The notes beneath the pieces were generated by a model. That model was given only the letters and a program-made list of their open reading frames with translations. It made no database searches and was not told the origin of the DNA. The translations under genes were made by a program, and so were the position numbers. From the IMG/VR virus record IMGVR_UViG_3300025011_000016: DNA of 64,000 nucleotides; one strand, written 5' to 3'. This DNA comes from a virus. Its lineage: Duplodnaviria > Caudoviricetes. Positions 7,187 through 44,014 of this stretch are shown here, in pieces (within the stretch, counting starts at the first letter, position 1; every line of letters starts with the position of its first letter).

Positions 7187-10100
7187 GTGAAAGATATGGA
7201 TAAGCAAAATATAATATCACAATTAAGTGATATTCATCAAAGGTTATTAGAAAAAGAAGATTTTGTTGATACTATACAGAGACTAGAATTAATGAAGATC
7301 AATAGACTTATCAATTATCTTTTATATGCAATTACTGAATATGATCCAGATGACAAATTAATACTTCAATTATTAATAAGGATATTGCAAAATATCTTTA
7401 ATAATAGTAGTGAAATATCTCCTGTGACCGATGAGGATTATGATAAATTATATGAGTTAAACAGACAATTTAATAATGAAGAAATTGTTGGATCGTCTTT
7501 TAATAAATCCAATAAGATAATTTCAAGTCATAAATATCCTGATTTGAGAGGAACTCTAGATAAGGTCCATTTCATTAGAATTAAAGATAAGGGTAAAGAC
7601 AAACGAAGATCTATAGAAGATTTTATTAATACTGTAGAAAATAAAATAGGCAGATCTTTAACTAAGGATGAATCATTCGCCTATCTATTTCCTAAATGGG
7701 ATGGTATATCATGTATATTCGAATGTGATGAAAATGGTAATACCGATAAGGCATTATCTAGAGGTGATACTGATATAAATGAAGCGGTCGACTGGACTAA
7801 ATTGTTTAAAGGATCTAATTTCAAGTATGTGTTCGGTAATGATATAAATAGATTATTTGGTTTAAAAACAGAGATTGTAATGAGTCGTTCAAATTATAAA
7901 TTAATATGTGAAAAAGAAGGAGATCTTAAAAGTCCAAGGAGTGCCGTATCGTCTATATTAACTTCATTAACTGGTGACACATCGAATTTACCATATCTAA
8001 CTATAATACCTTTACAGACTCAGGAGTTTGAAACTAAATCTATATATACTCCAACTATAGTATATGATGAGTTTCCATACAGTGGAGGATATTTAAACAA
8101 TTTAGATGAGATCGAATTAAGAATGTTGGAGTTAAGAGAACGTATTTATACTGAAATGGATATAGATACAGATGGTGTGGTTTTTCGTTTAGCTGATCCA
8201 TATATACAAAAACTATTGGGTCGGGAAGATAAGATAAATAAATATGAGTTTGCATATAAATTCCCTCCAGAACAAAAGAAAACTATAATTAAAAATGTTA
8301 ATTTCTCAGTTGGTCTTTTAGGTTCAGTGCGACCAGTAGCAGTAATAAAACCTGTTACAATAAAAGGTAATACTATAACCAATATATCATTGGGTTCTAT
8401 AGATAGATTTGAAGAATTGGATTTAAGATTAGGTGATGAAGTTATAATAAAATATGATGTTATACCATACCTATCAATAGATTCAACATGTAGAAAAGGA
8501 GATGGGACTAAGTTTACAACTCCAACAAAATGTATATATTGTAAGGAAGAATTAGTTAAAGATCCCATATTGAAATGTATTAACGAAAAATGTAATTGTC
8601 GAATTATAGGTAAGATTCTAAACTATACTAGTAAGATGAGTATTTCAAATATGGATGTTGGAACAGTAACCACTTTATTTGAAAATAAGTTATTACGATC
8701 TATTGGTGATCTATATAAACTCAAAGATCATAAATCTGATATAGTTTCATTAAGTGGTTTTGGTGAAAAATCCTTTAATAATATTATTAAAGGTATTGAT
8801 TCAAGACGAGATGTTTATGATTATGAGTTATTGGGTTCATTGGGTATTACAGATATAGGTAGGAAAATGTTTAAGCGAATTTTAAATATATATTATATTG
8901 ATGAACTTATAGATTCAAGTACATGAGTCTCATTGCATAGTGATATGTAATAGTAATTACTTTAATTGCGGGGATCTCCTTAGAACTTAAAACACTCTAA
9001 AGTAATAATGTTTAAGATTGGACAATCCGCAGCCAAGATTCTTAATAAAGAATAAGGTTCAACGACTATCCCAGTGGATGTGAAATTCATCATTAGGAGT
9101 AGGGCTCAAGTGAGTTGGGTGAAATCCCATTAAATCGAAATGAGTAACCCCATTATAAACCATTATAATGGGTGAAGATATAGTCTGTGCTTTAAGGAAA
9201 CTTAAAGATATAACTTAATCGTAAGTCCTAAAAATTTCATTTATATATTATTACTATGATACTAACAAATAATATAAGAAAGGAGGTGAATTAAATTGAT
9301 TAAAACTTTTAAAACAAGAATACGACCGACGAAAGAACAAGAAGTATATTTAAACAAATGCTTTGGATACAGAAGGTTTATATATAATAATGCTTTAGAA
9401 TACTTTAATACGATCTTAGAATTCAATGGTAATAATCTGGATAAAACATTAAAGAAGTTCTTTAATAAGTTTGATTATATCACTAATATATATTCTAAGA
9501 AAGAAAAAGAACCTGAACTGGAATGGACTAGGGAATATAATAAAAACATAAAGGATCAGGTATCTAGTGATTTTAATATAGCTGTTAATAGATTCTTTAA
9601 CGATATTAAAAATAAGAAGCGATGTAAACTTCATTTTAAAAGAAAGATCCATGGAAATGGGTCTTTTAGAATATACAATAAAAATAAAGGTAATGTTAAA
9701 ATTCTTGATAAAAACATATTCTCTTTTATTATTAATAGAGAATATGGTCATATGTCATTAAAAACATATGAAGATATAAGCTTTTTATATCATCATGATA
9801 TAAAAACTATGTCTATTCGTATGAAGAATTTTAAATATTATGTTTCATTCACCTATGAATTGGACATTCCAAAGCATGATCATGAGAAAGACATCATAGG
9901 TATAGACTTAGGGATACATAATCCAGTAGTTTGTTTTGATGGAAAAGATGTCATAGCTCCTAAATTTCCGAAAGGAATTATTAAGAGACTAGAGAAGAAA
10001 GTCGATAAGTTTTCAACGATAGTTTCTAAGAAGAAATATGATAAACGTAATCCATCAAAGAACTATATAAAAGCGAGAACCAAGCTTAATGATATTTATA

Positions 10101-10952
10101 TTAAAATAACAAATATCAGAATGGATTATATCCAGAAGGTATCTACATTTTTAGCTAAAACTTATAAAAACGTTATAGTTGATGAATTTAGTTTTAAGGA
10201 TGTATTAACAGAGTCTGATGGTATTGAGCGTATAAATAGAGGTATACACAGAGTTGGTGCCTTTACATTTACCACAGTGTTAAAATATAAATGCCACTTT
10301 TATGGTAGTGAATATATTTTAGCATTACCTAACAGTACGAACACATGCTCTGTTTGTAATCATAAAGTTAAAACTAAAATGAAGTTATCTCAAAGAGTCT
10401 TTAATTGCCCACAATGTGGACATATAGATGATAGAGATAACAATGCGGCTATTAATATCTATAATACATTTAAACGATCTTTATTAACTAACGTAAATAA
10501 AGATTTCGCCGTTGGTCGGACGGTTCAAAGAACCTAAACGGTTAAGTTATTATGGTATCTAACGAATACCATTAACACGACAGTTATGCCTAAAGAATAA
10601 GATGGGAGGGCTGTTATTAATCCGTGGGATTAAAGAAATAACAGCCGTTAAAATTATTGAGGGCATAAAGTCGAATAAAAAACTTATTGATTTATTACGA
10701 TCCGAGATTAATTTAAGGAGGGATGTAAGACGATATACAATTAAAGTATGTTTTACTAAAGTTAGAGATAAAGATTTTGAGAAATTTCTTGAAAGTAAGA
10801 ATGTATTGGTTCTTGAAAAATATAATAAGGAGGTTGATGTGTTAATCATACCTTATAAAGATATTGATTCAGTCAAAGTTACTACTGCGAAGAAAGATGG
10901 TAAGGATATCGTAACCATCGATGAAGCTTATAAGATGTTTGGTTATAAGTAG
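7187..10952 (+). CDS. ligA: NAD-dependent DNA ligase, 2 exons (about 698 aa)
   Basis: KWDG adenylation motif, SRGD, DGVV, AYKFPP, a Cys4 zinc finger and HhH repeats in exon 1 (7187-8914). Exon 2 (10584-10952) continues ELID|LCLKNK... into a BRCT-like C-terminus. Confidence 0.92.
9242..9251 (+). promoter_or_regulatory. early-type promoter motif inside the ligA intron, upstream of tnpB
   Basis: TATATATTAT lies downstream of the ribozyme core, 45 nt before the tnpB start. Confidence 0.55.
9296..10537 (+). CDS. tnpB: TnpB RNA-guided nuclease (IS200/IS605/IS1341-type)
   Basis: N-terminal HTH (RIRPTKEQ...CFGYRRFIYN), RuvC-I GIDLG, RuvC-II VDE, CxxC-CxxC zinc finger, RuvC-III DRDNNAAINI. AAGGAGGT RBS with TTG start. 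Confidence 0.93.
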   Translation: MIKTFKTRIRPTKEQEVYLNKCFGYRRFIYNNALEYFNTILEFNGNNLDKTLKKFFNKFDYITNIYSKKEKEPELEWTREYNKNIKDQVSSDFNIAVNRFFNDIKNKKRCKLHFKRKIHGNGSFRIYNKNKGNVKILDKNIFSFIINREYGHMSLKTYEDISFLYHHDIKTMSIRMKNFKYYVSFTYELDIPKHDHEKDIIGIDLGIHNPVVCFDGKDVIAPKFPKGIIKRLEKKVDKFSTIVSKKKYDKRNPSKNYIKARTKLNDIYIKITNIRMDYIQKVSTFLAKTYKNVIVDEFSFKDVLTESDGIERINRGIHRVGAFTFTTVLKYKCHFYGSEYILALPNSTNTCSVCNHKVKTKMKLSQRVFNCPQCGHIDDRDNNAAINIYNTFKRSLLTNVNKDFAVGRTVQRT

Positions 10953-11525: not shown

Positions 11526-14500
11526 TTGAAGGACTTCATAAAGGATTATAACAACACCAATGAAGAAAATATCAATTTTGATCTAATGACACGATCACAT
11601 GATGCTGATTTAACAGAGTATGTTGTTAATACCTGTAAATCATTAGAAGTTCTTAAATATATTAAATTCATTGGTTATGAATATATAACTGATGAAACGA
11701 AAATAGATATTAATTACTATATGAGTACGAGGAAGAAAAGTAAGAAGAAAAATGAAACAAAGTATATGTACCTGCAAGATAGTCGATATGGTGAAATGCA
11801 TTTAAAGTTTCATTTAAAATGTAAAGATCGATCATTAACTTTTATCAAGAAGATATTATTACCAGTGGCTGATGATAATGATTATTATTTAGTTAAAGGT
11901 AAAAGACATTCATTATTATATCAACTAGTTGATAGTTCAACTTATACAACTAGACAGAATTTAACATTAAAATCATTAAGACCTATTACGATGAAACGAA
12001 CTGAAAGAATATATTCAGATACAGATGGTACTAAACATTCAGCTCCTTCATATGCAATTTATATCTTCAAGAAAGAAGTAGATATATTATTATTCTATTT
12101 TGCAAAGATAGGTGTGTCAAGAACTTTAGAATATTTTTCAGTAAATCATATAATGAAGTTTAAATCAGAAATTGAAGATACTATCAATAATATATATTTC
12201 TCAATTAATAGTAAATTACATGTAGAGATCAATAGACATTTCTTTGATAAATATCCATATGTTAAGAGTATAGTATTTATGATATTGAATATTTGCACTA
12301 ATAGATTAACTGTTGAAGATCTAGAAAATAAATCTTTCTGGATTGAAAAGATAGGCTCTATGAATGCGACTAATGCATATAACTATCTAGAAAAAGGTAC
12401 TAATACTTTAGTATTCTTTGATAGGTTATTAGATGAAACAACTAAGAATATTTTAAAAATTCATGATGAGAATAATAAAAATATATACTCTGTAATTCGT
12501 TGGATTAAATTATAGTCCCATTATAGAGTGATCTATATTGAAAACTTCTTTAATTGTCGGGAAACTCCTTAGTGCTTTATAAAGATAAAGATTGGACAAT
12601 CCGCAGCCAAGATTCTTATAATAGGAATAAGGTTCAACGACTAATTTAGAGCTCAAGTGAGTGAGTTTAATATAACTCTTAAATCGAAATAAGAAGCATC
12701 TTATATAAGATGATGATATAGTCTGTGCTTTATTGAAAGATAAAGAAAGATAACATCTTTACATTATCTAACGAATAATGTTAACACTCAGGTTTCAAAA
12801 CTTTAATGAATTACGTAAGAAAGATAATCTTGATCTTGCCAATAAACGTTTACGATGTAATGAACTCATCGCATCATTATTAACTAAAGCTTTTAGTACT
12901 AGAGTTGATAGAATTATTGGTTTTGGTAATAAAGTTACGTTAGATAACATTAAGGAAATATTCAAATTTCCAGGTGATGTAATAATGCAGCAATTGCATA
13001 AGTCAGGATTATTTAGATATGATATTTTATTGTCCATTATAGTAGTGATATTATAATGAATTTTCTTTAATTGGCGGGGACATTCTTAGGGCTTAAACTA
13101 CTAAAATATATCAGTGATGATATACTAACTAAGAGTAACTAACTTAGTATGAGTAATAATGTTTAAGATTGGACAATCCGCAGCTAAGCATCTTTATATA
13201 AACCCCCATAATTATTAATACGTTATACAATATAAAGGAGAGGTGTGACTGTAATGAAAGGACGATTGGGTGAAAATAAATGTCCCTCTTGTTACGAATA
13301 ATTATTCAATTAATTCTGAGGGATTTATTAGGAATGATAAATTCAATAGAATTTTGACCCGATGGAAAAATAATAGAGGTTATGAAGCTGTGCAATTATC
13401 ATGTATTGATGGTATAACAAGAAGTTTTACAATTCATAGATTGATGGCTCATCATTTTATACCAGGGTTCGACATTTCAGATAGATCCATTGTTGTTCAT
13501 CATAAGGACAGTGTAAATAAAACTAACTCATTAGATCTTCTAACCGTTTGTACTCAAAAAGAAAATATTAAGTATTCTATCGAAGAAGGTAATAAACCAA
13601 ATGGTGAAAAACATCCGATGGGTAAATTTCCAGATGAGCTGGCTAATAAAATAGTTGCCTTATTACAAAAAGAAAAAAGTACCGATGAAATATTTAATAT
13701 ATTAGATTTAGAAGTTAAGAAGAATATGCGTATATTTATAAATGATCTTAGAGCTAAACGAACCCGATTGTATTTAACTGAAGGTTTGGATTTAAAGAAG
13801 CATGTGCAGGAAAAACATGATATAAACTTGGTGAAGAGGGTGATTCGTTATATGAAGATAGGTATGACGGTAGATAATATAATCAATATGATTGGAAAAG
13901 GAAATGCTGGTAGGCATGAAAGGGAGAGATACTCCTCGTTAATACAAAGGATACATGACGGGAAAGCGTGGGGAAGATTATATAAAGATGATAGTTCAAC
14001 GACTAATGATGACTACATGGTTATTAAAATTAAAATGTAGTTATAGATTTACAAGCTAATGGTAAATCGAAATGGGGAACACCTCATATTAAGTTGATAT
14101 GAGATGAAGATATAGTCTGGTATCCTAATATTAAATTAGGGAAGTTCATAAGAGAACTGGGTTTCGTTGCGGAAAACCTGAACCTGGGGATAAAATTAAC
14201 GATCTCGACTTCTTTAGTAAGTTCAAATATACCCTAAATTTTGGGGCGTTATAGAGTGATCTATATAGATAAAATTCTTTAATTGTCGGGGAACTCCTTA
14301 GAACTTCTTAATTGAAGATTGGACAATCCGCAGCCAAGATTGTTGATAAACAATAAGGTTCAACGACTAGAGTATAACTCGTAGATATATAAGTTAATGA
14401 TATATCGAAATAAGTTTAATCTTCTTATAGAAGATTGTGATATAGTCTTGTATCCTATATAACATTAGGGAAGTTCATTTGAGAACTGTATAGAGTTACG

Positions 14501-24989: not shown

Positions 24990-27900
24990 ATGGATTTCAT
25001 GAAAGGTATTAATAAAGAGAATGTCATGTTAATTAATATAATATATCATAATAAGAGAAAAGAGAATAATTATAATGATTACTTAGATATTATCACTAAA
25101 GATTTAACCACAGGTGAAAAAATACTTACAACTATCGAGAATCCTGAAATGGATATATATTTTACAAAAGAGGAGCATAGAAATTATGACTATAATAAGA
25201 ACTTTATGGAAATTGATAAGACTGATAGACATAGATTTAAATATAAAGATCTAACTAGATCCATAGCTAAAATGGCTGGGCCTAGTTATGAGAACTTCAT
25301 TAAACAATCTATAGAAACACAAAATTATGCTAGAATAAATAATATCCATAAATATAAATATGTATTTGGATCTGATGTTGATATTGAAAATTGGTATAGA
25401 ATTCAATGGTTATTAAATTATGATAATAATAAACCTAAATCCGTAACTAAGCTATTTCTCGACATAGAAGTCGACGGTCGGGATGTACCTGGATTCCCCA
25501 GAGATGGTGAAGTGCCAATTAATGCTGTAACGATAGTAGATGAATTTAGTAATCAATCATTTACATTCTTATTGGATAATCCATTAAACCCTCAAATAGA
25601 AGATTTTAAAAATGATGTGGAATCTTTTGTTGAAGAACTACATAATGATTTTGATGAATCATATGGGGAATTAAAATATAACTTATTTATTTATGATGAT
25701 GAAGTTCAAATGTTAATAGATGTATTTAAATTGATTAACACTCTGAACCGAGATTTCCTATTAGTGTGGAATATGAGTAAAATGATGCTCCTTATAAAGG
25801 CGACTTTATAAGAAAATTTCTTTAACTGCTGGAAACTCCTTAGAGCCTTTATTATCAGAGTATAATAATATAAAGGATTGGGCAATCAGCAATCAAGTTC
25901 AATAACAAACTAAGTTTTATTACATTTATTAGAGGAGGGTAAAACATGTATATAGTAATACGCAAAGATAAAGAAGTATTTAAATTATCAACTTATCCTG
26001 GGATTAAAAAAGATATGTATTCTATTAGTAACTACGGGTCTATACGTAATAATGTGACAAACGAGATATTTTTTCCAACATCGAGAAACTCAGCAGGTTA
26101 TGTACACACTTCTTTATGTACAGAATCATTTAAAGTTTACACTAGTGTTTTGGTATCACGTTTAGTTGCTTGGGAATTTTGTGATGGTTATGATAAGGAA
26201 CTAAATAGGGTGGAAGTCAATCATAAAGATATCAACAGGGCTAATAATTATTATGAGAATTTAGAATGGGTGACTCGGGGAGAAAATACTAAATTTGCCT
26301 ACGTGCATGGCAATCGTAAGGTGATAGTGCCAGATTCTAGGGGACCAAGAGCAAAGATACGCGGATCATTAAATCCCAAGAATGTTTTCAGTGAAGAGTT
26401 TGTACATGAACTCTGTCAGTTATTCACGGACGGTAAGAGCACTAAAGAGATATTAAAAATATTCAATACGAGTAAAAAATTAAATACACAACTCTATTCA
26501 TTACTCATGACTTTGAAACATAGAAAAGGATGGGGACATATTACGGAAAAATATGTATATTGATATTTGTTATTGAAAAGATTCAACGACTAGAGTGAGA
26601 ACTCGTAGACCCTTTTCATGGGGTGGACATAATAAGTCCTTCGCGAAATGGGAAACATCTCCGATGTGGAGATGAAGATATAGTCTGATATCTTAGGGAA
26701 ATCCTAAGGAAGTTCATAAGAGAACTGCGTAGTATAAAAAACTATGTGAACTGTTTGTTCGATGTGCCGTACATGATCGCACGTATGTTAGAATTAGGAA
26801 TGAATCCTGTTGAAGTGATGTGTCATAAAGATTTTAAAATACAAGAAGCTTTTTTCAAAAAAGATCTTCGAAATTTTATGATAGCTAATAAAGGAGATTA
26901 TTTTAAGATATCATCTTATACTGTATATTTAGACCAAATGATAGTATATGCCAGTTTAAGAAAAGGAGGTAGTCAGTTACGATCAAATGCTCTTAGCTAC
27001 ATTGCTCAAGTTGAAATTGGTGATGAAAAATTAGACTATTCTGAAGATGCTAATATCAAAACTTTACCATATGTTAATTACAAGAAATTCGTTAAATACA
27101 ATATCAAAGACGTTTTACTACAACTTGGAATTGAGAGAAAAACTCATGATATTGATAATGTTTATTTAAGATCGTATACAAATGTAACAGCTTATTCAAA
27201 AGTATTTAGACAAACGGTATTTTATAGTGCCGGTGATTCTTTAATTGACGGGAAACTCCTTATAGCTTCTTAATGAAGATTGGACAATCCGCAGCCAAGA
27301 TTCTTATAATAAGAATAAGGTTCAACGACTAGAGTATAACTCGTAGGTTTAATAACTGAAATGGGAAACCGATAGAATTTATTCTATTGAAGATATAGTC
27401 TATTATCCTAAAGTAATTTAGGGAAGTTCATAAGAGAACTACATTATCTTACAAATAATGTGAATTATAGGTTCTTAAAAAACAGAGCATTTTTAGAGTT
27501 TTATAAACAAGGTTTGATTATTGGTAATAATACCAATATTGATTATGGATTACCTCCTCAGATAGCTAAAGAAAAAGATGAGGATGATGAGAAATTTGCA
27601 GGTGCATTAGTTGGTGATCCTGAATTGAATAGTAAGACTGGTATAATGATGTTAGGAACTCCAAGTAAATACATCTATGATAACGTTGTAGATATGGATA
27701 GCTTTGTCCCATTATGTAGTAATATGTAATGAAAACTTCTTTAATTGACGGGGAACTCCTTAGAACTTCTTAATCGAAGATTGGACAATCCGCAGCCAAG
27801 ATTCTTATTATATAGAATAAGGCTCAACGACTATCCCATTGGTATTGAAATATACAACAGGAGTAGGGCTCAAATGAGTGGGTGAAATTCCCTTAAATCG

Positions 27901-28600
27901 AAATAAGAAGCATCTTATATAAGATGATGATATAGTCTGAACTCATATGAGAATATGAGAGAGTTTACTTTATATTATCTAATAAATAATATTAACAAAT
28001 TGATGGGTAAATATTGCTCATATAAAACTTCTTTAATTGACGGGAAACTCCTTAGAACTTCTTAACTGAAGATTGGACAATCCGCAGCCAAGATTCTTAC
28101 ATAAGAATAAGGTTCAACGACTAGAGTGTGACTCGTAGATATAAAGTTATATCGAAATGAAAAGCTCTCTTAATAAGAGATGAAGATATAGTCTAATATC
28201 CTATATAATTATAGGGAAGTTCATAAGAGAACTGTATAGAGTTACGATCTATATGAATACCATGGCGTTTTATCCTAATATGATTATGGCTTTTAATATA
28301 TCACCAAATTGTATAATCGGTAAATTACTCTTAGACACAACCATAGAAGACCTATATAATATCAAAGATATTGAAGCCGATATATATGATTGTGGGCGAG
28401 ACTTCGTAGATAACATGTTAATTAACAATCCTGGTAACATGGGCAGTAAATGGTTTAATCTTCCGAAAATAGAAGAACTTAATGAGTTAATACGAGAGAA
28501 GTTCTTAATGAATAAGAAGACTAAACTAATTATACCTGACTCATATAAAGATAAGTTATTTATTGAGAATCTAGTAATAAATATTAAAGGAGTGAAATGA
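24990..28600 (+). CDS. polB: split family-B DNA polymerase, N-terminal chain (3'-5' exonuclease plus motif A); 5 exons, about 606 aa
   Basis: Exons 24990-25778, 26758-27218, 27471-27699, 28003-28008, 28265-28600 total 1821 nt, in frame. ExoI LDIEV, ExoII WNMS|FDVPY, ExoIII YNIKD, motif A VVDMD|MG|AFYPN. Confidence 0.88.
25779..26757 (+). mobile_element. group I intron carrying an HNH endonuclease in P6 (pol intron 1)
   Basis: GAGT|A pairs with TGCTC. The P4 pairing is compensated (TGCTGG/TCAGCA instead of TGCGGG/TCCGCA). R at ~26582, S at ~26675. Ends ...CTGTTTG. Confidence 0.88.
25946..26563 (+). CDS. intron-encoded HNH homing endonuclease (NUMOD4-HNH-like)
   Basis: YSISNYGSI, GYVHTSL, SRLVAWEF, VNHKDINRANNYYENLEWVT..EN. 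Confidence 0.88.
   Translation: MYIVIRKDKEVFKLSTYPGIKKDMYSISNYGSIRNNVTNEIFFPTSRNSAGYVHTSLCTESFKVYTSVLVSRLVAWEFCDGYDKELNRVEVNHKDINRANNYYENLEWVTRGENTKFAYVHGNRKVIVPDSRGPRAKIRGSLNPKNVFSEEFVHELCQLFTDGKSTKEILKIFNTSKKLNTQLYSLLMTLKHRKGWGHITEKYVY
27219..27470 (+). ncRNA. group I intron, ORF-less (pol intron 2)
   Basis: CGGT|ATT pairs with AGTGCCG. Full core. Ends ...ATTATAG. The join gives RQTV|FLKNR. Confidence 0.9.
27700..28002 (+). ncRNA. group I intron, ORF-less (pol intron 3)
   Basis: GGAT|AG pairs with TTGTCC. Full core. Ends ...CAAATTG. Confidence 0.85.
28009..28264 (+). ncRNA. group I intron, ORF-less (pol intron 4)
   Basis: TGGGT|AA pairs with TTGCTCA. Full core. Ends ...TACCATG. Confidence 0.85.
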
Positions 28601-29373: not shown

Positions 29374-32300
29374 ATGGCTAATCCCAAAGATAATGATTCG
29401 AATTTAGTCAAAAAAGTAGAAAAACCTTTGGCTAAATTAAATACTCTATTTAATGATATCATGGATACTATTTCGTTTAACACTTTTAATACGGATAGTA
29501 AGCATGAGAAAGAATTACAGAAATTTGCTAAGGAAATTGATGAGGTTGTTTCCCAAGAAATTAAGAACTTAACCACATTTACGGGAGATGACATATCAAC
29601 TTTCTTAGTAAAATTATTTAATGAATATGATAATAATGCCAATACTGACTTTAAGAATATCGAAGATATATTCAATACAAAAGACAATAGTGTTTTTCAA
29701 TTCTTTCAAGATAAATATAAAAATGTAAATTTATTATATGATGATCTAAATATGATCTGTAGTAAATTATCGGAATTAAATGAAGCCGTCTTAGCGACTA
29801 GAGATGCTATTGTAACTTCAGACGATATAGGTCAATCGATAACGCGTACATTGAAATTTAAAGAAGTTGTTGAAAGTAATGAGAATACAAGTTATATAAA
29901 GCTTATTGAGAATATGGAAAAGAAATTTAAATTAACTCAGAAACTTAAGAATCATATCATTCCAAAAACACTTCAATATGGTAAGTATTATGCGTATATA
30001 ATACCATATGCTAAATTATTTGAAAGATATTACAATGATAAGGTAAAAGATGATAGAATGGTTTCCTCTTTAGAGTCATCAGTAACACCTGACTTTATAA
30101 CTGAAGTTAAAGAAAGTGTAAATGCTATATCTAAAACGAATATATTACCTAACGATATGTCTAAAGCACTAAAAGGTTATTTAGAAGGTATTGAAGTTCA
30201 TAATGATGAGATCGCAATTCCAGTTATTGAAGGAATTGATATCAGTATATTATTAGAGGATATGTTAGATGATCCTGATGAATTTAAATCAAATGTTGAA
30301 AAAACATTAAAGAATTCCACTAAGAAATCTAAAGGAAAAACTACTACCGATATATTTCCAGAATCAACTATTAATATGAAAAAATCGAATAAAGATAGTG
30401 ATTTTGTTAATATAAAAGGTTGTTATGTTAAGCTAATAGAACCTAGAAAAATAATACCTGTAAAGATACTTGATCAAGTAATTGGGTATTATTTTATTCA
30501 TGATACAGCATATGATACTCATAAATCCCCATTTACTACAACTATTAAAATGAATCCCGCTAATAATACCAATGATGCTGAAAATATGTTCTTATCTAAA
30601 ATAACAGATAAAGTTGTTAAAGCATTCGATAAAAGTTTTTTAGAAAAGAATATTAAGTTTAAAGAACTTATTATGAATGCTTTAACATATAATGATATTT
30701 ACAAAAAGCAACTAAAATTTCAATTTATACCTAAGGATTATATCCAAGAATTTACCGTTAATGAAGATGAGGAAGGTGAAGGTACATCTATATTAATGCC
30801 TTCATTGTTTTATGCTAAATTATACTTAGCGTTACTTATCTTTAAGATGATGTCTATCATCACTAAATCTAATGATACCAAAGTTAATTATGTAAAACAA
30901 TCTGGAATTGATACTAATGTTGTTAATAAGGTTCAAGAAGTTGCTCGGTCAATTAAGGATCGTCAGGTAAATTTCATGGACATATTGAATTATAATAGTA
31001 TTATCTCTAAGATTGGAGCTAATAAGGAGCTCTTTATTCCTGTGGGCCGCTCTGGGGAACGTGGACTTGAATTTGACATTATTTCAGGGCAAGAGATTTC
31101 CCTGAACACAGAACTAATGGAAATGCTAAAATCGAGCTTCATTAGCTTGACTGGAGTCCCCTCGGTAAAATAATATATAGCCGATGATAAACTTCTTTAA
31201 TTGACGGGAATATCCTCAGAGCTTTAAACTACTAAACTAGTATAGTGATATGCTAAGTGGCTAGGAGTAATTAACCTAGGTATAGTAATAATGTTTAAGA
31301 TTGGATAATCCGCAACCAAGATTCTAATGTTATTAAATATTATTTCTTATATTCATCATAACAGAGCTATAAATATAATTATATGAAAGGATTGTGAGTA
31401 ATGCGAAATATAGTTGAAATATTTAAACCGATTTATATTTATGGTGAACGCACTAATTATTTAGTTAGTGATTGGGGGACTGTAATGAATGGGACTACCA
31501 AGAAGGAGTTAAAACAACGTCTTAATGCTGATAACTATTATGAAGTTACATTATGGGTAAATAATAAAGCCGTTAATCGAAGGATACATAGATTGGTGGC
31601 CGAAACCTTTCTTGAGAATCCAAATAATTATCCTGTAGTAAATCATAAAAAAGGTGGATTAACAGAGGATGGGCAATGGAATAATTGTGTTTTAAACTTA
31701 GAACATACAACTATTTCATATAATACAAAACATGCATATGATACGGGTTTAAAGAACCCTTTAGTTGGAGAGGAATGTGGGTTTAATATATATCCGGAAC
31801 CATTAATAGATAAAATTATCAATAAACTATTAATGGCTATACCACCGGACATTATAGCCGATGAACTTGGGGTAAAAGTATCATTAGTTACAAGTGTGCG
31901 TGATGGATATTCATGGAAACATAAAATTAAAGGTCTTGTTTTTCCTAAACCTGCTTTTGCCCACACTAATGAATATACATATGAATTAAAATTTAAAATT
32001 TTGAATTTATTATATGTGGGTAAAACAACAAAGGAAATTATAGAAAGACTTGATCTTCCGAAAAAAAATAAATTTAAAAGTTTAATCGACAATATAAGAC
32101 GACGAAATATGGAGAGGATGATAATAAATATTAGATGAAGGCCCAACGACTATTGAAAGATATGTTTTCCGTTCAACATATTAAGTAATGTAGATATACA
32201 AGTCAATTAATGGTATATCGAAATATGAGGCAATCCCTTTAAATATAAGGGTTTGAAGATATAGTCTGGTATCCTATAGAAATATAGGGAAGTTCATAAT

Positions 32301-33134
32301 AGAACTGCATTATCTGACGAATAGTGTGAACATATCTCGTATTATGAATTTCATTAACGAAGCAGATCGAGAAATCCATGTCTGCATATACAGTGATGTA
32401 TATTAAAAAACTATTTTAATTGTCGGGGATCTCCTTAATGCTTTATTTAATAAAGATTGGACAATCCGCAGCCAAGATTCTATTTAATAGAATAAGGTTC
32501 AACGACTATCGAAAGCTTTTAATTAAGTTAGTAGAGTAGATTACATATTGATGGTAATCGAAGTGGAGAGCTCCAATATTAAAATTAATTAATTTTAATA
32601 TTGGATGAAGATATAGTCTAGTATCCTAATGTAAATTAGGGAAGTTCATAAGAGAACTGCATGTGAGTTATGACATATGTGAATATATCGTATGCCAAAA
32701 CCCTAGTCATGGCAAATGCTAAGTTTGTCGGTCGAGTTATAACACATCAGGGATCATTTAATGGATCAGTTACTGAATTCTATAAGAAACTAATGGGATT
32801 TGCAACTGAAATACCTGAGAATTTAATCGATGAATTTGAATATATATTTGCTGCACCGAAAACATTAACTAATACTAATCTAACTGATCTTATATCTAAT
32901 GCTGAACAAACTGCTACATTTATTGTGAAATCATTAACTGGTGATAATTCATCCCCTAGTGATGATGATAACTTATTAAAAGATTTGTTATTTAATAAAA
33001 TCTCTAGAGAATTCCTACCAATGATTCCATGGAGTACTGCTGATACAATATTAGAGGAGTGTAAGATAGAATTGGAGAAGTTGAAAGCTGAAAAGAAAAT
33101 GACTACTCCTGAAGGTACTGAAGACGTACAATAA
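29374..33134 (+). CDS. portal protein (T4 gp20-like), 3 exons, about 754 aa
   Basis: Exons 29374-31166, 32340-32367, 32691-33134 total 2265 nt, in frame. ELFIPVGRSG..GLEFDIISGQ...FISLTGVPS resembles the gp20-type pattern. Located in the morphogenesis cluster. Confidence 0.75.
31167..32339 (+). mobile_element. group I intron carrying an HNH endonuclease in P6 (portal intron 1)
   Basis: TCGGT| pairs with GCCGA. Q at ~31306, R at ~32142, S at ~32255. Ends ...TATCTCG. Confidence 0.87.
31401..32138 (+). CDS. intron-encoded HNH homing endonuclease
   Basis: YLVSDWGTV, YYEVTL, IHRLVAETFL, VVNHK, NNCVLNLEHTT..YN. Confidence 0.88.
   Translation: MRNIVEIFKPIYIYGERTNYLVSDWGTVMNGTTKKELKQRLNADNYYEVTLWVNNKAVNRRIHRLVAETFLENPNNYPVVNHKKGGLTEDGQWNNCVLNLEHTTISYNTKHAYDTGLKNPLVGEECGFNIYPEPLIDKIINKLLMAIPPDIIADELGVKVSLVTSVRDGYSWKHKIKGLVFPKPAFAHTNEYTYELKFKILNLLYVGKTTKEIIERLDLPKKNKFKSLIDNIRRRNMERMIINIR
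32368..32690 (+). ncRNA. group I intron, ORF-less (portal intron 2)
   Basis: GCAGAT| pairs with GTCTGC. Full core. Ends ...TATATCG. Confidence 0.88.
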
Positions 33135-39295: not shown

Positions 39296-42200
39296 TTATG
39301 AATTGAGTTCATCGAAGAAATCCAATGGTATACCTGTTTCTGATGACATATCATCATCAAAATTTTCAACATAATTTTTTGGTGGAATTAACATATCACT
39401 ATGCTTCATTTCCCTACGAGCTTTTTGGATTTCTTCAATTAATTTTATATTATAATCGTCTTGAGTTTTAACACCAACATCTTTAAAATATCCCTTGCTA
39501 TCATCCGAGAGTTCTTCATATAGTTCATCATATGTTAACCCTTTATTACGTTTTTCTTCGTCGGGTATATCTCCCCTGACAAAACCGAATCTATGAAGAT
39601 TATTTCCATGATAGAATACATATAGAACTATTAGATATGACATTATTGAATCGTCATGAAAAGAAGTCCCTGCAGCTATTTTACCAGTTTTAGTTTTAAC
39701 TAGTCGTAATAGATCATCAATAATATTACAGGTAACAAATTTATCTTTAAATTCATTCACATGTCGTTCAAGTAAACTCCTGTCGTGTTAGTAGTATTCG
39801 TTAGATACCACGATAACTTAACCGTTTAGGTTCTTTGAACCGTCCGACCAACGGCGAAATCTTTATTTACGTTAGTTAATAAAGATAGTTTAAATGTATT
39901 ATAAATATTAATAGCCGCATTGTTATCTCTATCATCTATATGTCCACATTGTGGGCAATTAAAGACTCTTTGAGATAACTTCATTTTAGTTTTAACTTTA
40001 TGATTACAAACAGAGCATGTAATGGTACTATTCGGTTCTGCTAAAATATATTCACTACCATAAAAACGACATTTATATTTTAACACCTGCGTAAACGTAA
40101 AGGCTCCAACTCTATGAATACCCCTATTAATACGCTTAATACCATCAGACTCTGTTAATAAATCTTTAAAACTAAATTCATCAACTACTACGTTTCTATA
40201 GGTCTTGGCTAAGAATGTAGATACCTTCTGAATATAATCCATTCTAATATTCACTATTTTGGCGTGAATATCATTAAGCTTGGTTCTCGCTTTTATATAG
40301 TTCTTTGATGGATTACGTTTATCATATTTCTTCTTAGAAACTATTTCCGAAAGCTTATCAGTTTTCTTCTCTAGTTTCTTAATCTTCCCTTTCGGAAATT
40401 TAGGATTTATGATATCTTTTCCATCAAAACAAACTACTGGATTATGTATCCCTAGGTCTATACCTATAGTATTTTTCTCATGGTTATGACTTGGATTATC
40501 TATTTCATATGTGAATGATACATAATATTTAAAATTCTCCATACTAATACTCATTGTTTTCATCTCATGATGATATAAGAAGCTTATATCTTCATATGTT
40601 TTTAATTCCATATGCCCATATTCTCTATTAATAATAAAAGAGAATTTATTTTTATCGAGAATCTTAACAGCAGCTTGCTTAATATATATTCTAAAAGAAC
40701 CATTTCCATGAATCTTTCTTTTGAAATGTAGTTTACATCGCTGCTTATTTTTAATATCTTTAAAGAACTTATTAACGGCTAAGTTAACATCACTAACCGT
40801 TTCATTTTTTATAGACTTATTATATTCTCCAGTCCATTCAAATCCAGGTTCCTTTTCTTTCTTAGAATATATATGAGTAATAAAATCAAATTTATCAAAG
40901 AACTTCCTTAAATCTTTATCTACAATATTACCATTAAATTCTAGGATCTTATTAAAATACTCTAAAGTATTATTATATACAAATCGTCTATAACCAAAGC
41001 ATTTGTTTAAATATGTTACTTGTTCTTTAGTTGGTCGTATTCTTGTTTTAAAAGTCTTAATCAATTTTTATTCACCTCCTTTCTTATATTATTTGTTAAA
41101 GGTATAATATAATTGTATTAGGAATGAATTAGTAAGACTTACGGTTAAGTTATTCTCTAAGTTTCCTTAAAGCACAGACTATATCTTCACCCATTATAAT
41201 AATAATTATAATGGGGCCACCCATTTCGATTTAAGGGATTCTCACCCACTCACTTGAGCCCTACTCCTTTACGGATAGTCGTTGAACCTAAATCTATAAA
41301 TAGATCATTGGCTGCAGATTGTCCAATCTTAAACATTGTTACTTTGTTGTAGTTTAAGCACTAAGGAGTTTCCCGCAATTAAAGTAGTTTCAATTACATA
41401 TTACTATGCAACGTGACTCATACATGAATCATAACTTCTCTGGACTTATCTCCGGTCCAAACACCATATAGTTTTCGTCTAGCTGATTCTAATTTTAACA
41501 TACCTTCTGAGTCAAGTTTATCATCAAGTCCGGATGAAACAAGATCTTTATCATTATCAAAGTATAAATTAGAGCGTATATCTGTTAATTTTAAAGAATC
41601 CATTATGGCTTCACCATTAAAATTACGTTCTATACATAATATAGACTTAGGGATATGATGTTTGATAAGAGTAGTTATAAATTTAATAGTCTGAACTACA
41701 CCTATATATGGTGATTTAAATTCAGCAACAGGTTTTATAGTATATGGGTCAAATACCGTAACGGCAGTATTATCTTTACCATAACCATTAGAGGTATCAA
41801 CTCCAACGAAGTATATCCTATCTTTCTTCAAGGGTTCATATATATCTAATTTAAATAGTTTATTTATAAATATTTCTTCCTTAATTGGCTTCTTCATTTC
41901 TTCAATAGTGGCCAAATCTTCTGCGGGGAAAGGAGATTCGGATGAACCCCTCATTCTTTGAAGGAAGACCTCTCTTTTAATCTTTACTGGATTATTCAGT
42001 AAGATCTGACAGATACTTTTAAACCATATTTCATCTTTACCAAGTTGTTGATATTGGTATTCAATATAGACGATTCCACTTTCAGAATTAATTGCAATAT
42101 ATTCATCTAAATCTTCTTTAGTCCAATCATAAAACTTTTCAGTCCAACGACAAGTTGTAGCGATAATCTTTAATGCGTCCTGACCTGCTGAAGTATCTAA

Positions 42201-44014
42201 ATCTCCCGTTTATATTCATATGAATCGTTAATTCATATAGTCCATACGGACATCCCTAAGTTTCTTTAGGATACTAGACTATATCTTCATCTCTTAATAA
42301 AGTAATTACTCATCAATAAGAGAGTTTCTTATTTCGATTTAAGGGATTTTTTTACCCACTCACTTGAGCCCTACTATTTAGTCGTTGAACCTTTCTCTGC
42401 TTAATAGTTATATTCTTTATTAATGTGATTCCAAAGTTTCCTATGCTTTATTGCAATAATTAGTGCGTAAAAACTATTATTTTCTTTCTTTTCTTTATAA
42501 CCATAAAAATTCATAATTTTCATCATAGATAACTTTTGTGTCAGCATATTACATATTTCTCTAATTGTTTCCTCACTATAAACATTATTATTGTTACTAA
42601 TTCCTCTACAATAATTATTCCCATGATCAACCGCGTGTAAATTATTTTCCGAATATGTTGTCCATTCCAAATTTTCAAAATAATTATTTTCAGTATTACT
42701 GTCTTTATGATTTACAATAATCCTCCCGACAGTTTCATCAAAACCTTTACAAAATTCCCATGCAACTAATCGATGCACACCTATATATCTTCTGACATTA
42801 TCATTATCTCTTAAATGTATCTTAACATATCCATTTTTATCTCTAAAATTAATTTTCCGTATTTTATCTTTCTTAATATCAAACACTTTCCCATAATTAC
42901 TAATCATATACCTATCTTTTTGTATATTCGGATAAGTAACTGGCCTGAATTCTTCCTTTTCCATAGCTATTATAATATGCATAGTATCGATTTCCTCCTT
43001 CTTTTATTAATTAGTTTAATTGAATGTATAATCTTATTTAAATATTAAACAGAGACTTGGCTGCGGATTGTCCAATTCTAAACATTATTATCTTAATCTA
43101 GGTTAATTACTCCCAGCCACTATTATAGAAATATAATAGTTTGATAGTCTAGACTCTAAGAGGTTCCCCGCAATTAAAGAAAATCCTATGTGATATCACC
43201 ATCACATAGCCCTAGTTAAAGGTGTACTTGTGAAAATACGTCCATATTGGGCATTATTCCTTTTGGCATTTTGAGAGGCTGTAAGATATGCTGGACCCGA
43301 TGCTTCAACTATAGTTTTAATAAAAAGGGTAAATTCAACTTCATCACAGTACTGAATCGGCTGAGTTGATCCGCGACCGATACCCTCAGCTCCTTCTACT
43401 GAACGAGCCGATGGTTTGGCAATTATTTTATTATTATTAGTTGGGTTGGAGAGAGATTTGACATTGTCGTCACCTTCTACTTTTTTACCCTCATCATTAT
43501 AAACAACTTTAAATTGTAAATATTTAGGTAATAAATCTCTCTGTTTTTTCATTCGCAACAAATTATCATTAGCATCCTCTTGACGCTTATTTAAAAACAT
43601 CATTTCTGAATTTGTTGTCCCGAACAAAAAGCTCCAATCAATAATTGCCAAAGCAGACTGTGTTTTACCTATTTGACGTGGAATTACCTCATATAAATCA
43701 ATTCCATTTAGGAAACACCAAGTAGCAGCTAAATTCGCCCTATTTAATTGATACGGAATTCCAGTTCCACCTTGATCTGGGATTAAACAAACTTCCCTTA
43801 AAAAATACCATGGATTAACAAGACACTCATTAATTATTCTGAATATTTGTTCGTCGGTTAAAAAAGGGGAGTATGGATCGACTCCCCTTAATGACATATC
43901 ATAGAGTTTCAAAAAGAACATATTATTCTTAATACCAAGTTGTCGTAAATCCATTGCAGTCTGTAGAAATGATATATTTCTGGTGTCTACATCATAATCA
44001 AATTTTCTAGCCAT
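39296..44014 (-). CDS. terL: terminase large subunit, 3 exons, about 685 aa
   Basis: Exons 44014-43220, 42206-41428, 39779-39296 total 2058 nt, in frame. Walker A PRQIGKT, Walker B CDEVEF, coupling motif TSTP|GD, nuclease GVDTSNG..D, ERN and HDDSIMS. Confidence 0.92.
39780..41427 (-). mobile_element. TnpB-carrying group I intron (IStron-like, no tnpA) in terL (intron 2)
   Basis: TGAT|TC pairs with IGS GAGTCA. Full core. The arms ATAACTTAACCGT / ACGGTTAAGTTAT flank tnpB. Ends ...AACACGACAG, and the join gives REVMM|SLLERH. Confidence 0.9.
39826..41064 (-). CDS. tnpB: TnpB RNA-guided nuclease (second copy)
   Basis: Colinear homolog of 9296..10537 with the GIDLG / VDE / DRDNNAAINI catalytic motifs and zinc finger intact. 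Confidence 0.93.
   Translation of the reverse strand: MIKTFKTRIRPTKEQVTYLNKCFGYRRFVYNNTLEYFNKILEFNGNIVDKDLRKFFDKFDFITHIYSKKEKEPGFEWTGEYNKSIKNETVSDVNLAVNKFFKDIKNKQRCKLHFKRKIHGNGSFRIYIKQAAVKILDKNKFSFIINREYGHMELKTYEDISFLYHHEMKTMSISMENFKYYVSFTYEIDNPSHNHEKNTIGIDLGIHNPVVCFDGKDIINPKFPKGKIKKLEKKTDKLSEIVSKKKYDKRNPSKNYIKARTKLNDIHAKIVNIRMDYIQKVSTFLAKTYRNVVVDEFSFKDLLTESDGIKRINRGIHRVGAFTFTQVLKYKCRFYGSEYILAEPNSTITCSVCNHKVKTKMKLSQRVFNCPQCGHIDDRDNNAAINIYNTFKLSLLTNVNKDFAVGRTVQRT
42207..43219 (-). mobile_element. group I intron carrying an HNH endonuclease in P6 (terL intron 1)
   Basis: CCT|T pairs with AGGG. Full core split by the ORF. Ends ...TATAAACG. Confidence 0.88.
42401..42982 (-). CDS. intron-encoded HNH homing endonuclease (NUMOD4-HNH-like)
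   Basis: YMISNYGKV, GYVKIHL, VHRLVAWEF, VNHKDSNTENNYFENLEWTT..EN. N-terminus similar to 25946..26563. Confidence 0.9.
   Translation of the reverse strand: MHIIIAMEKEEFRPVTYPNIQKDRYMISNYGKVFDIKKDKIRKINFRDKNGYVKIHLRDNDNVRRYIGVHRLVAWEFCKGFDETVGRIIVNHKDSNTENNYFENLEWTTYSENNLHAVDHGNNYCRGISNNNNVYSEETIREICNMLTQKLSMMKIMNFYGYKEKKENNSFYALIIAIKHRKLWNHINKEYNY

What the first reader, a model, noticed from the sequence alone, without database searches (positions are those of the whole stretch)
39780..41427. Second TnpB intron in terL: same element, new site, re-matched IGS and a different guide
Seen: a diverged sister element sits in the terminase nuclease domain. Both copies insert after W-W-G-A-T (TAGAT| in ligA, ATGAT| in terL). 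The IGS differs at exactly the base needed to keep P1 paired (GAGTCT with AGAT, GAGTCA with TGAT). The last ~125 nt are conserved as hairpins with compensatory changes (ATGGTAT/ATACCAT vs GTGGTAT/ATACTAC around an identical CTAACGA loop). The downstream exons, i.e. the putative guides, are unrelated (TTATGCC... vs GAGTTTA...). Inference: the element has moved between unrelated essential genes as a unit, and both splicing and targeting re-programmed to the new flank. Homing alone cannot explain that move, so a trans-acting TnpA or reverse splicing is implied.
Basis: partly seen in the sequence, partly recalled or inferred. Interest (0 to 1): 0.85.

Follow-up and report, generated by a model that had tools for sequence, protein, structure and literature searches.

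The report
TnpB-carrying intron (IStron) in phage terminase
A 1,648-base selfish element that is both a self-splicing intron and the carrier of an RNA-guided nuclease gene (tnpB) sits inside the DNA-packaging (terminase) gene of an uncultured giant groundwater phage; it is one of at least five sister copies and belongs to the already described "IStron" class, so it is a clean new example, not a new kind of system.

Summary
Window 39780-41427 (- strand) has three parts: a complete group I ribozyme, an intact tnpB gene, and a structured 3' end finishing in the splice-site G. Removing it rejoins terL exactly as in an uninterrupted relative. It matches the ligA copy along its whole length, with sharp borders at both splice sites.

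I found three more tnpB copies in the same phage lineage and three ORF-less relatives in the window. All seven spliceable elements follow NGAT. The guide-sequence base opposite exon position -4 covaries in 7 of 7 (A-U, U-A, G-C).

The tnpB genes are under purifying selection (dN/dS 0.11-0.23).

- The terminal hairpin occurs in all 21 intron tails examined, so it is a ribozyme part and not specific to the guide RNA.
- The near-identity of the terL and ligA 3' ends is largely recent gene conversion.

The element fits a tnpA-less group-A-type IStron (Tourasse 2014; Zedaveinyte 2023). A 2026 review already states the idea of a triple constraint at the 5' junction. No TnpA was found in what I could search, so how new sites were reached is unresolved. 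This scan had already reported sister copies in this genome.

The parts
43220..44014 (-). terL exon A (ATPase part)
   Evidence: PHROG terminase large subunit, 3.3e-57. It is 78% identical to residues 13-277 of the uninterrupted L009 TerL.
42207..43219 (-). First terL intron: a group I intron carrying an HNH endonuclease ORF (42401-42982). It is not of the IStron type and follows ...ACACCT|.
   Evidence: The gap between the tblastn blocks defines it. There are split Rfam group I hits at 43172-43020 and 42323-42256. The ORF hits PHROG HNH endonuclease at 7e-30.
41428..42206 (-). terL exon B (start of the nuclease domain, includes VGVDTS). Its last five bases ATGAT (41432-41428) occupy the TAM / transposon-target position, and its last four (TGAT) form the exon strand of P1.
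   Evidence: Fold match of the relative's homologous region to terminase nuclease domains.
39780..41427 (-). The IStron: 1,648 nt, with borders equal to the splice sites.
   Evidence: The alignment with four sister copies ends exactly here. Exon collinearity confirms the borders.
41155..41427 (-). Group I ribozyme core P1-P9. The IGS UGAGUCA lies at 41420-41414, the P2 hairpin at 41411-41394, and J8/7-P7 at 41185-41175.
   Evidence: Rfam RF00028, 83.9 bits over model positions 1-253. Motif coordinates. P1 pair counts.
41141..41153 (-). 5' strand of a 13-bp long-range stem (ATAACTTAACCGT) that closes the loop holding tnpB. It is the counterpart of the 'IR stem' of IStrons.
   Evidence: Perfect complement of 39825-39813. 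The ligA copy keeps the stem through one G-U pair.
39826..41064 (-). tnpB, 412 aa, TTG start, with ribosome-binding site AAGGAGGTGA at 41081-41072.
   Evidence: E 1.7e-24 to ISDra2 TnpB (8EXA/8BF8). dN/dS of 0.14-0.23 against the sister copies.
39813..39825 (-). 3' strand of the 13-bp closing stem, directly after the tnpB stop codon.
39813..39990 (-). Candidate omega-RNA scaffold. It comprises the conserved hairpins inside the 3' end of tnpB (for example 39886-39859 and 39855-39839) and runs on to the element end.
   Evidence: Consensus fold of five copies. It is the most conserved stretch of the element, 0.95 mean pairwise identity, with lowered synonymous divergence. There are no RNA data, so this is inferred.
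39780..39811 (-). Terminal 7-bp hairpin (GTGGTAT-CTAACGA-ATACTAC, 39811-39791) and tail TAACACGACAG, whose last G (39780) is the 3' splice-site G.
   Evidence: The hairpin is in all 21 intron tails examined, so it is a ribozyme element.
39296..39779 (-). terL exon C. Its first ~20 nt (39779-39760, GAGTTTACTTGAACGACATG) are the predicted guide, which equals the target on an intron-less allele.
   Evidence: 59% identical to L009 TerL residues 538-696. In the window this 12-nt seed occurs only next to the element's right end.
8915..10583 (+). Sister IStron in the NAD-dependent DNA ligase gene (TAGAT|, IGS GAGUCU, 413-aa TnpB).
   Evidence: The ligase exons match PHROG profile positions 28-524 and 534-653.
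12506..12791 (+). ORF-less relative of the IStron ribozyme (TTGGAT|, IGS GUCC, ends TAACACTCAG|). Two similar ORF-less relatives lie at 4792-5086 (GGAGAT|) and 27700-28002 (ATGGAT|).

Best explanation
This is a tnpA-less IStron of the IS200/IS605 (group A) type: a group I intron whose peripheral loop carries tnpB and whose two ends are also the ends of the mobile element.

Shown or strongly supported:
- The RNA can be removed at 41427/39780 to give an intact terminase reading frame, so the insertion in an essential gene is tolerated.
- The element exists as at least five diverged paralogues in this phage lineage. They sit in terL, ligA, a helicase and a further gene, plus one 5'-truncated intergenic copy.
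- P1 has been kept paired at every site.
- tnpB is kept by purifying selection in every copy.

Inferred from the published IStron/TnpB mechanism:
- Unspliced transcripts yield an omega RNA. Its scaffold is the 3' end of tnpB plus the element end, and its guide is the first ~16-20 nt of exon C.
- TnpB with this RNA would cut an intron-less terL allele that carries ATGAT followed by the guide match, for example in a co-infecting relative.
- Repair from the intron-bearing genome would copy the element in (RNA-guided intron homing).
- The occupied allele is safe, because ...CGACAG replaces the TAM next to the target.

The step that first put the element into terL is not shown. The most likely route is single-strand transposition by a Y1 TnpA supplied in trans, or since lost, at (W)WGAT sites, the target type of CdISt1 and ISDra2. 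The copies are old (dS about 0.4-0.6), and the terL and ligA copies have since exchanged their 3' ~250 nt.
For: Element anatomy:
- Full-length group I ribozyme.
- TnpB domains and family score.
- Alignment to ISDra2 TnpB with acidic residues at the three RuvC motif positions and both CxxC pairs present.
- Borders equal the splice sites in four full copies.
- Exon collinearity with an uninterrupted TerL.

Insertion sites and P1:
- Sites are TTGAT, ATGAT and TAGAT x2, with no target duplication.
- P1 covariation is 7 of 7 with three pair types, and it is incongruent with ribozyme relatedness.

Selection and structure:
- dN/dS is 0.11-0.23.
- The 3' region is conserved and structured, and a 13-bp stem closes the tnpB loop.
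- Each guide seed is found only beside its own right end.

Literature:
- Group A IStrons insert after TTGAT/ATTAT/TTTAT, and many lack ORF A (PMC4227781).
- CdiIStrons have TAM TTGAT and no full-length TnpA. TnpB homes to each new insertion site (bioRxiv 10.1101/2023.11.20.567912).
- tnpA-less IStrons could spread by intron homing (PMC13565253).
Against: - No splicing, omega RNA or cleavage has been observed for this element.
- No TnpA gene or remnant is in the element. Only about 210 nt lie between P9 and the tnpB start. None was found in 41 window ORFs or in five related phage records.
- The left-end and right-end hairpins do not resemble each other by my inspection of the sequences, whereas, from my general knowledge, canonical IS200/IS605 ends do.
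- The element ends in ACAG, not the TCAG of group A IStrons.
- The position that aligns with the catalytic Glu of ISDra2 TnpB is Asp-Glu (VVDEF), so the register of the second RuvC residue is uncertain.
- The nearest uninterrupted terL relatives are at most 70% identical. In those whose DNA I read (64% and below) the site sequence differs. No natural homing target has therefore been seen.
- The copies are old, and every contig that carries this tnpB or this exon has the insertion. Present-day mobility is therefore not shown.
Confidence: 0.8

Rival explanations
1. New sites were reached without any transposase, by reverse splicing. The excised intron RNA integrates into transcripts after sequences complementary to its guide sequence (NGAU), and is then copied back into DNA by reverse transcription and recombination. 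TnpB only provides homing afterwards.
For: - No TnpA was found in what could be searched.
- The three invariant target bases (GAT) are exactly those opposite the invariant IGS bases (GUC). The one variable target base is opposite the one variable IGS base.
- All seven spliceable members lie in genes in the sense orientation.
- ORF-less relatives follow the same rule.
Against: - No reverse transcriptase is known here.
- From general knowledge, reverse splicing followed by fixation in DNA has not been shown in nature for bacterial or phage group I introns.
- The same GAT pattern is expected if TnpA and the TnpB TAM constrain the site, as in CdISt1 and ISDra2, whose target is TTGAT (PMC4227781).
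- The sense orientation is equally explained by selection against non-splicing insertions in essential genes.
Confidence: 0.15
2. The element is a fixed relic. It still splices, but neither moves nor homes today, and tnpB is kept for some other reason or is only slowly decaying.
For: - Copies differ by dS 0.37-0.58, so the insertions are old.
- The own-sequence terL exon-B ORF (P0137, cut short by the insertion) is the only close allele on record, seen on 14 contigs, and the nearest intron-less relative is 70% identical.
- The helicase copy's TnpB has lost its C-terminal ~17 residues by a frameshift.
- One copy has lost its ribozyme 5' half.
Against: - dN/dS of 0.11-0.23 in all ten pairwise comparisons shows continued selection on the protein in each copy.
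- Acidic residues stand at the three RuvC motif positions and both zinc-finger CxxC pairs are present in the terL copy. The first (GxDLG) and third (RDNNA) motifs are kept in all five copies.
- The 3' scaffold region is the best-conserved part.
- Recent gene conversion between the terL and ligA copies shows the copies still interact.
Confidence: 0.2
3. tnpB entered two unrelated resident introns independently, so the two loci are not one element that moved.
For: - The ligA ribozyme is more diverged from the others (72-78%) than tnpB is (83-87%).
- It shares an extra ~19-nt insertion with the ORF-less intron at 27700.
Against: - Homology is continuous from the first intron base to the last in all four full copies.
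- The tnpB insertion point, the 13-bp closing stem and the ribosome-binding site are the same.
- The ligA peculiarities look like module exchange between introns, not a separate tnpB capture.
Confidence: 0.02

Closest known systems
Group A (IS200/IS605-type) IStrons: CdISt1 / CdiIStrons of Clostridioides difficile and relatives (Tourasse 2014, PMC4227781; Zedaveinyte 2023, bioRxiv 10.1101/2023.11.20.567912)
   Same: - A group I ribozyme sits at the 5' end, with tnpB downstream.
- The element ends equal the splice sites.
- It inserts 3' of a pentanucleotide ending in GAT/AT (TTGAT in CdISt1) with no target duplication.
- The last exon base is U in a U-G pair.
- Many copies lack TnpA.
- The guide is taken from the 3' flank.
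   Different: - There is no ORF A remnant at all.
- The element ends in ACAG, not TCAG.
- Targets vary (TTGAT, ATGAT, TAGAT), with a matching change in the guide sequence.
- TnpB is at most 33% identical to anything outside this phage lineage.
- The host is an uncultured, intron-rich jumbo phage, and the sites are essential replication and packaging genes.
ISDra2 TnpB with its omega (reRNA) guide, TAM TTGAT (PMC8612924; PDB 8EXA, 8H1J)
   Same: It is the best natural solved-structure match (E 1.7e-24, full length). The TAM type ends in GAT. The scaffold overlaps the 3' end of tnpB, and the guide is the flank.
   Different: Protein similarity is only distant (phmmer E 1.7e-24). The host element is an intron rather than a plain IS with TnpA. 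Activity and TAM have not been measured here.
Group B (IS607-type) IStrons, including CbISt3/CbISt4 of Clostridium botulinum phages c-st and D-1873, and the CboIStron studied experimentally
   Same: IStrons are already known in phage genomes. TnpB there was shown to cut the empty donor joint, and splicing was shown to compete with omega RNA formation.
   Different: Those insert after GG (TGGG), end in CGG and use a serine TnpA. Here the sites end in GAT, and the IS200-type TnpB model scores higher than the IS607-type (179 against 124 bits).
Classical mobile group I introns of phages with protein homing endonucleases (T4 td/I-TevI; AR9 and Twort-like phage introns with HNH or GIY-YIG genes)
   Same: A nuclease gene sits in a peripheral loop of a self-splicing intron in an essential phage gene. 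The expected spread is by double-strand-break repair during co-infection. The same terL gene also holds such an HNH intron (42207-43219).
   Different: Target recognition would be by RNA guide plus a short TAM, so specificity resets automatically at any new site.

Membership tests
Group A (IS200/IS605-type) IStron | A group I ribozyme forms the 5' part, and the 5' splice site coincides with the element's left end. | tested here: met
   RF00028 full-length hit at 83.9 bits. Homology with the sister copies starts at the first intron base. The exon junction is collinear with an uninterrupted TerL.
Group A (IS200/IS605-type) IStron | An IS200/IS605-type ORF B (TnpB) lies downstream of the ribozyme. 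| tested here: met
   Three Pfam TnpB domains. NCBIfam guided_TnpB at 203 bits against a cut-off of 100, and IS200_TnpB at 179 bits above IS607_TnpB at 124 bits.
Group A (IS200/IS605-type) IStron | [quoted passage not shown] | tested here: met
   ATGAT| here, TTGAT| in the helicase copy and TAGAT| in two others. The flanks show no duplication. ATGAT and TAGAT themselves are not among the published variants.
Group A (IS200/IS605-type) IStron | The 3' terminus is TCAG. | tested here: not met
   All five tnpB copies end in ACAG. One ORF-less relative (12506-12791) ends in TCAG.
Group A (IS200/IS605-type) IStron | A Y1 (HUH) TnpA gene or a recognisable remnant is in the element. | tested here: not met
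   About 210 nt lie between P9 and the tnpB start, with no ORF. No PF01797 or PF00239 hit among 41 window ORFs. Published families include 'ORF B only' copies, so this does not exclude membership (PMC4227781).
Group A (IS200/IS605-type) IStron | The intron is of subclass IA2. | tested here: inconclusive
   No subclass model was available. The nearest DNA matches of the core are introns of Staphylococcus Twort/K-like phages and Bacillus phage AR9, and the literature places IStron introns with the Twort ribozyme.
Group A (IS200/IS605-type) IStron | Self-splicing that restores the host mRNA. | not testable with these tools
   Supported only indirectly, by the exact restoration of the terL frame.
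TnpB RNA-guided endonuclease with omega RNA | The RuvC catalytic triad and the zinc finger are intact. | tested here: met
   The terL copy has GIDLG, VVDEF, DRDNNA and two CxxC pairs. The first and third motifs are kept in all five copies. The register of the second acidic residue is uncertain (Asp-Glu where ISDra2 has Glu-Asp).
TnpB RNA-guided endonuclease with omega RNA | An omega RNA scaffold is encoded at the 3' end of tnpB and runs into the flank as the guide. | tested here: inconclusive
   The 3' ~200 nt are conserved and structured, and synonymous divergence is lower there. Gene conversion also contributes, and there are no RNA data.
TnpB RNA-guided endonuclease with omega RNA | TAM- and guide-dependent DNA cleavage. 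| not testable with these tools
   This needs an interference or TAM-library assay.
Group B (IS607-type) IStron | Insertion after GG (for example TGGG), a 3' end of CGG, and a serine TnpA. | tested here: not met
   The sites end in GAT and the element ends in CAG. No Resolvase domain was found in the window ORFs.

The most novel reading that the evidence does not exclude
A transposase-free IStron family has colonised at least four essential genes of a jumbo phage. The intron's own guide sequence, acting by reverse splicing or an equivalent RNA-directed step, chooses new NGAT sites. TnpB, re-armed automatically by each new flank, then drives the copy through the phage population and cuts intron-less competitors during co-infection. 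This would be a multi-guide, RNA-programmed marker-exclusion system in a virus.
Probability: 0.15. Interest if true: 0.75.

Novelty: new member of a known kind. Interest (0 to 1): 0.45.

Why it matters
IStrons must satisfy three demands at one junction: the splice donor, the transposon end and the nuclease TAM. This phage lineage offers a natural series for studying that. It has four full copies and three ORF-less relatives of one family at different sites. GAT is invariant in all of them, and the fourth base varies together with the intron's guide sequence.

That series gives a direct prediction for the TAM (NNGAT, tolerant at -4). It also gives a set of ready-made, closely related TnpB/omega RNA pairs for testing whether scaffolds are interchangeable.

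It further shows that RNA-guided nucleases can take the place of protein homing endonucleases in phage introns inside packaging and replication genes. This bears on how phages compete during co-infection.

The kind of element and the idea are already published. The gain is a good model case, not a new principle.

Tried and rejected
- **Whole genome:** not held, and its records cannot be searched through loci. TnpA could therefore be sought only in the window and in five related IMG/VR records.
- **IMG/VR scans:** searches for the TnpB and for the 3'-end motif found nothing.
- **Metagenome scan:** the single scan with a loose 3'-end motif returned 20 stretches. Only one (L031, a copy of the truncated L003 locus) was relevant, and the rest were chance matches.
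- **L001:** it looked like a new site, but it is an assembly chimera. It has the helicase 5' flank and the L005 3' flank.
- **Sequencing runs:** no RNA holder is listed. Only Logan contigs could be laid, and they break inside the repeated element. No contig joins 41428 to 39779. This says nothing about rare empty sites.
- **Near-identical intron-less terL alleles:** searched with exon B. The closest fused B+C proteins are at most 70% identical.
- **TnpB genes in related phages:** those of Staphylococcus phage Machias and of the related phage record G004 are not preceded by group I introns.
- **Clostridioides phage AR1086-1:** the DNA match is an ORF-less intron, not an IStron.
- **Nearest non-family TnpBs:** they are 31-33% identical. 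One sits beside a serine recombinase, so they do not settle the origin.
- **Pfam on the terL exons:** it gave nothing. PHROGs, the relative's sequence and a fold search were needed instead.
- **Independent tnpB capture by two introns:** rejected on the alignments.
Full report
**What is at the locus**

On the - strand, terL is split into three exons. An uninterrupted 684-aa TerL from a related IMG/VR phage (locus L009) aligns to the window in three collinear blocks:
- 44014-43220, 78% identity
- 42206-41421, 68% identity
- 39778-39299, 59% identity

The first gap (43219-42207) is a group I intron carrying an HNH endonuclease gene. The second gap is the finding.

The 5' exon ends at 41428 (...GTTATGAT). 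The intron runs from 41427 to 39780, and exon C starts at 39779 (GAGTTTAC...). Joining the exons gives ...SREVM|MSLLERHV..., against SREVMFQLLDAHV in the uninterrupted relative.

An AlphaFold model of the relative's C-terminal part (mean pLDDT 75) matches terminase nuclease domains: T4 gp17 at E 8.7e-10, and the G20c and RB49 nuclease domains at TM about 0.7 by target. The insertion point is about model residue 267, between the invariant Asp144 and Asp309/310 of the alignment. 'In the terminase nuclease domain' is therefore correct.

**Anatomy of the element (1,648 nt; coordinates)**

- Ribozyme P1-P9: 41427-41155. Rfam RF00028 scores 83.9 bits over the whole model.
- Closing stem: 13 bp, ATAACTTAACCGT at 41153-41141 paired with ACGGTTAAGTTAT at 39825-39813. 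It closes the loop that contains tnpB.
- Ribosome-binding site: AAGGAGGTGA, followed by a TTG start.
- tnpB: 41064-39826, 412 aa.
  - It has the three Pfam TnpB domains.
  - NCBIfam guided_TnpB scores 203 bits against a cut-off of 100.
  - It aligns over its full length to ISDra2 TnpB (E 1.7e-24). The terL copy has GIDLG, VVDEF, DRDNNA and two CxxC pairs.
- 3' end: two hairpins inside the end of the ORF, the closing-stem strand, a terminal 7-bp hairpin with loop CTAACGA, and the tail TAACACGACAG, whose last G is the 3' splice site.

The ligA copy (8915-10583, +) aligns end to end, and homology stops exactly at both splice sites. The TnpB proteins are 85% identical. The ligA ribozyme scores 80.3 bits. 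It was missed by the whole-window run at gathering threshold, probably because of the speed filters.

The junctions, the IGS difference, the hairpin difference and the unrelated 3' exons are all as described.

**More copies**

The protein database holds only four 90% clusters of this TnpB, all from this phage lineage. The next relatives are at most 33% identical. Fetching their contigs gave the following:
- a helicase copy: TTGAT|, IGS GAGUCA, 396-aa TnpB truncated by a frameshift
- a copy between 442-aa and 458-aa ORFs (L005/L006): TAGAT|, IGS GAGUCU
- a 5'-truncated copy (L003/L004/L031), whose homology starts only at the J8/7 motif ATATAGTC. It lies between convergent genes yet keeps an intact 410-aa TnpB and the full 3' end.

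L001 is an assembly chimera.

In the window, three ORF-less introns share the IStron-type ribozyme and tail:
- 4792-5086, after GGAGAT|
- 12506-12791, after TTGGAT|
- 27700-28002, after ATGGAT|

**P1 covariation**

Across these seven elements the exon bases -3 to -1 are always GAT, opposite an IGS of G-U-C (one U-G wobble variant). The -4 base pairs with the next IGS base as A-U in three elements, U-A in two and G-C in two.

All 40 cells of the six-pair helix are standard pairs. No shuffle of 500, and no slid register, reaches this.

The IGS state does not follow relatedness. In P1-P2 the L005 copy is 95% identical to the helicase copy and 79% to ligA, yet it has the ligA-type IGS. The match has therefore been set separately at different sites.

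By the Rfam register, which I did not verify individually, most of the other introns in the window follow quite different sequences. GAT is thus a property of this sub-family and not of the ribozyme fold as such.

**What the 3' end does and does not show**

The terminal hairpin has one compensatory pair (A-U to G-C) and one G-C to G-U change between ligA and the rest. But a 7-bp hairpin with a 7-nt loop of the type (C/T)T(A/T)ACGA, with very different stems, precedes the 3' splice site in all 21 intron tails I examined, ORF-less ones included. It belongs to the ribozyme. It may do double duty, but it is not evidence for an omega RNA.

The parts peculiar to the tnpB-bearing copies are the hairpins inside the end of the ORF. 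That region is the most conserved of the element, at 0.95 mean pairwise identity against about 0.87 overall.

Synonymous divergence falls there too. In the last 53 codons it is 0.20-0.34 for the six pairs without the frameshifted helicase copy and other than terL-ligA, against 0.41-0.63 upstream. The four pairs that include the helicase copy stay at 0.52-0.79.

For terL against ligA, dS is 0.03 there and 0.49 upstream. Segment identity is 97.0% against 88.9-94.0% for other pairs. This points to a recent exchange of the last ~250 nt between these two copies and not to constraint alone.

**Selection and age**

All ten pairwise comparisons of the five tnpB genes give dN/dS of 0.11-0.23 with dS of 0.37-0.58. 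The copies are old, and each has stayed under purifying selection.

**Transposase and mobility**

No Y1_Tnp or Resolvase domain was found among 41 window ORFs of 85-290 aa. None was found in five related IMG/VR phage records either. The closest complete one (218 kb) also lacks this tnpB.

I could not search the rest of this genome or any host.

The nearest intron-less terL relatives are at most 70% identical. In the relatives whose DNA I read, the site differs: ATGTT in L009, and ATGAT with an unrelated downstream sequence in L014-L016.

**Classification and literature**

The element has the defining layout of group A IStrons:
- a ribozyme at the 5' end
- an IS200/IS605-type ORF B
- insertion after a TTGAT-like pentanucleotide
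- no target duplication
- ends that equal the splice sites (PMC4227781)

It departs in ending with ACAG, not TCAG, and in having no ORF A remnant. 'ORF B only' copies are described for CdISt1.

- CdiIStrons have TAM TTGAT and no full-length TnpA. [quoted passage not shown]
- A 2026 review states the triple constraint at the 5' junction, and says that tnpA-less IStrons could spread by intron homing (PMC13565253).
- IStrons in phages (C. botulinum c-st, D-1873) are in Tourasse's table.

In my literature searches I found no paper describing IStrons in jumbo phages, or TAM/IGS covariation within one family.

Earlier reports of this scan had already filed the ligA, helicase and a further copy of this genome as group A IStrons. 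I re-derived those loci independently from the protein clusters.

**Verdict**

Its inference about how the element reached terL remains open.

Noticed in passing
L003:2300-3794 (also L004, L031): This is a fifth tnpB copy that lacks the ribozyme from P1 to P8; homology starts at ATATAGTC of J8/7. It lies between convergent genes but keeps an intact 410-aa TnpB under purifying selection and the full 3' end. It cannot splice, so it is a free-standing tnpB/3'-end module derived from an IStron.
   Followed up: partly
window 42207-43219 (-): terL holds a second, unrelated group I intron with an HNH endonuclease gene (42401-42982) inserted in the ribozyme. Rfam sees only two sub-threshold halves of it.
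   Followed up: partly
window, all group I introns (for example 2665-5086, 12496-15311, 27184-28216, 32358-32641, 57030-57880): At least 19 Rfam-level group I introns lie in 64 kb, plus several more seen only by blastn (13043-13200, 15211-15311, 25814-25891, 31284-31319). All 21 examined tails have a 7-bp terminal hairpin with a TAACGA-type loop, and the stems differ widely between introns.
   Followed up: partly
window 9060-9130 versus 27850-27920: The ligA IStron ribozyme shares an extra ~19-nt insertion (TATCCCA..GGAGTAGGGC) with the ORF-less intron at 27700-28002 but not with the other tnpB copies. This suggests exchange of ribozyme modules between introns.
   Followed up: no
window 39886 / 41081 (table 5): Contigs of two groundwater runs join 39886 to 41081. 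This form lacks everything from the tnpB ribosome-binding site to the first 3' hairpin. It is probably an ORF-less derivative at another locus of the genome, mapped here at 85% likeness.
   Followed up: no
window 41375 / 39780 (table 5): One contig joins an IStron-type 3' end to the P3 region of a group I intron ('goes back 1596'). It is probably another locus where an element end is closely followed by the next intron. It remains unexplained.
   Followed up: no
L014:764-3989 (IMG/VR record of 222 kb): A more distant relative has four group I introns around its terL, and two TnpB genes (416 aa, about 30% identical) that are not inside group I introns. No Y1 TnpA is in that record.
   Followed up: partly
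L042:2816-3115 (Clostridioides phage AR1086-1, OR397124.1 about 31599-31898): An unannotated ORF-less group I intron appears to split two 'hypothetical protein' CDS (ADOKEBJH_00034/00035). It follows GCGAT|, with an IGS containing GUCGC.
   Followed up: no
window 8905-9207: The ligA ribozyme (80.3 bits) is absent from the whole-window Rfam run at gathering threshold and appears only when the region is searched alone. Intron counts from single whole-window runs are therefore lower bounds.
   Followed up: yes
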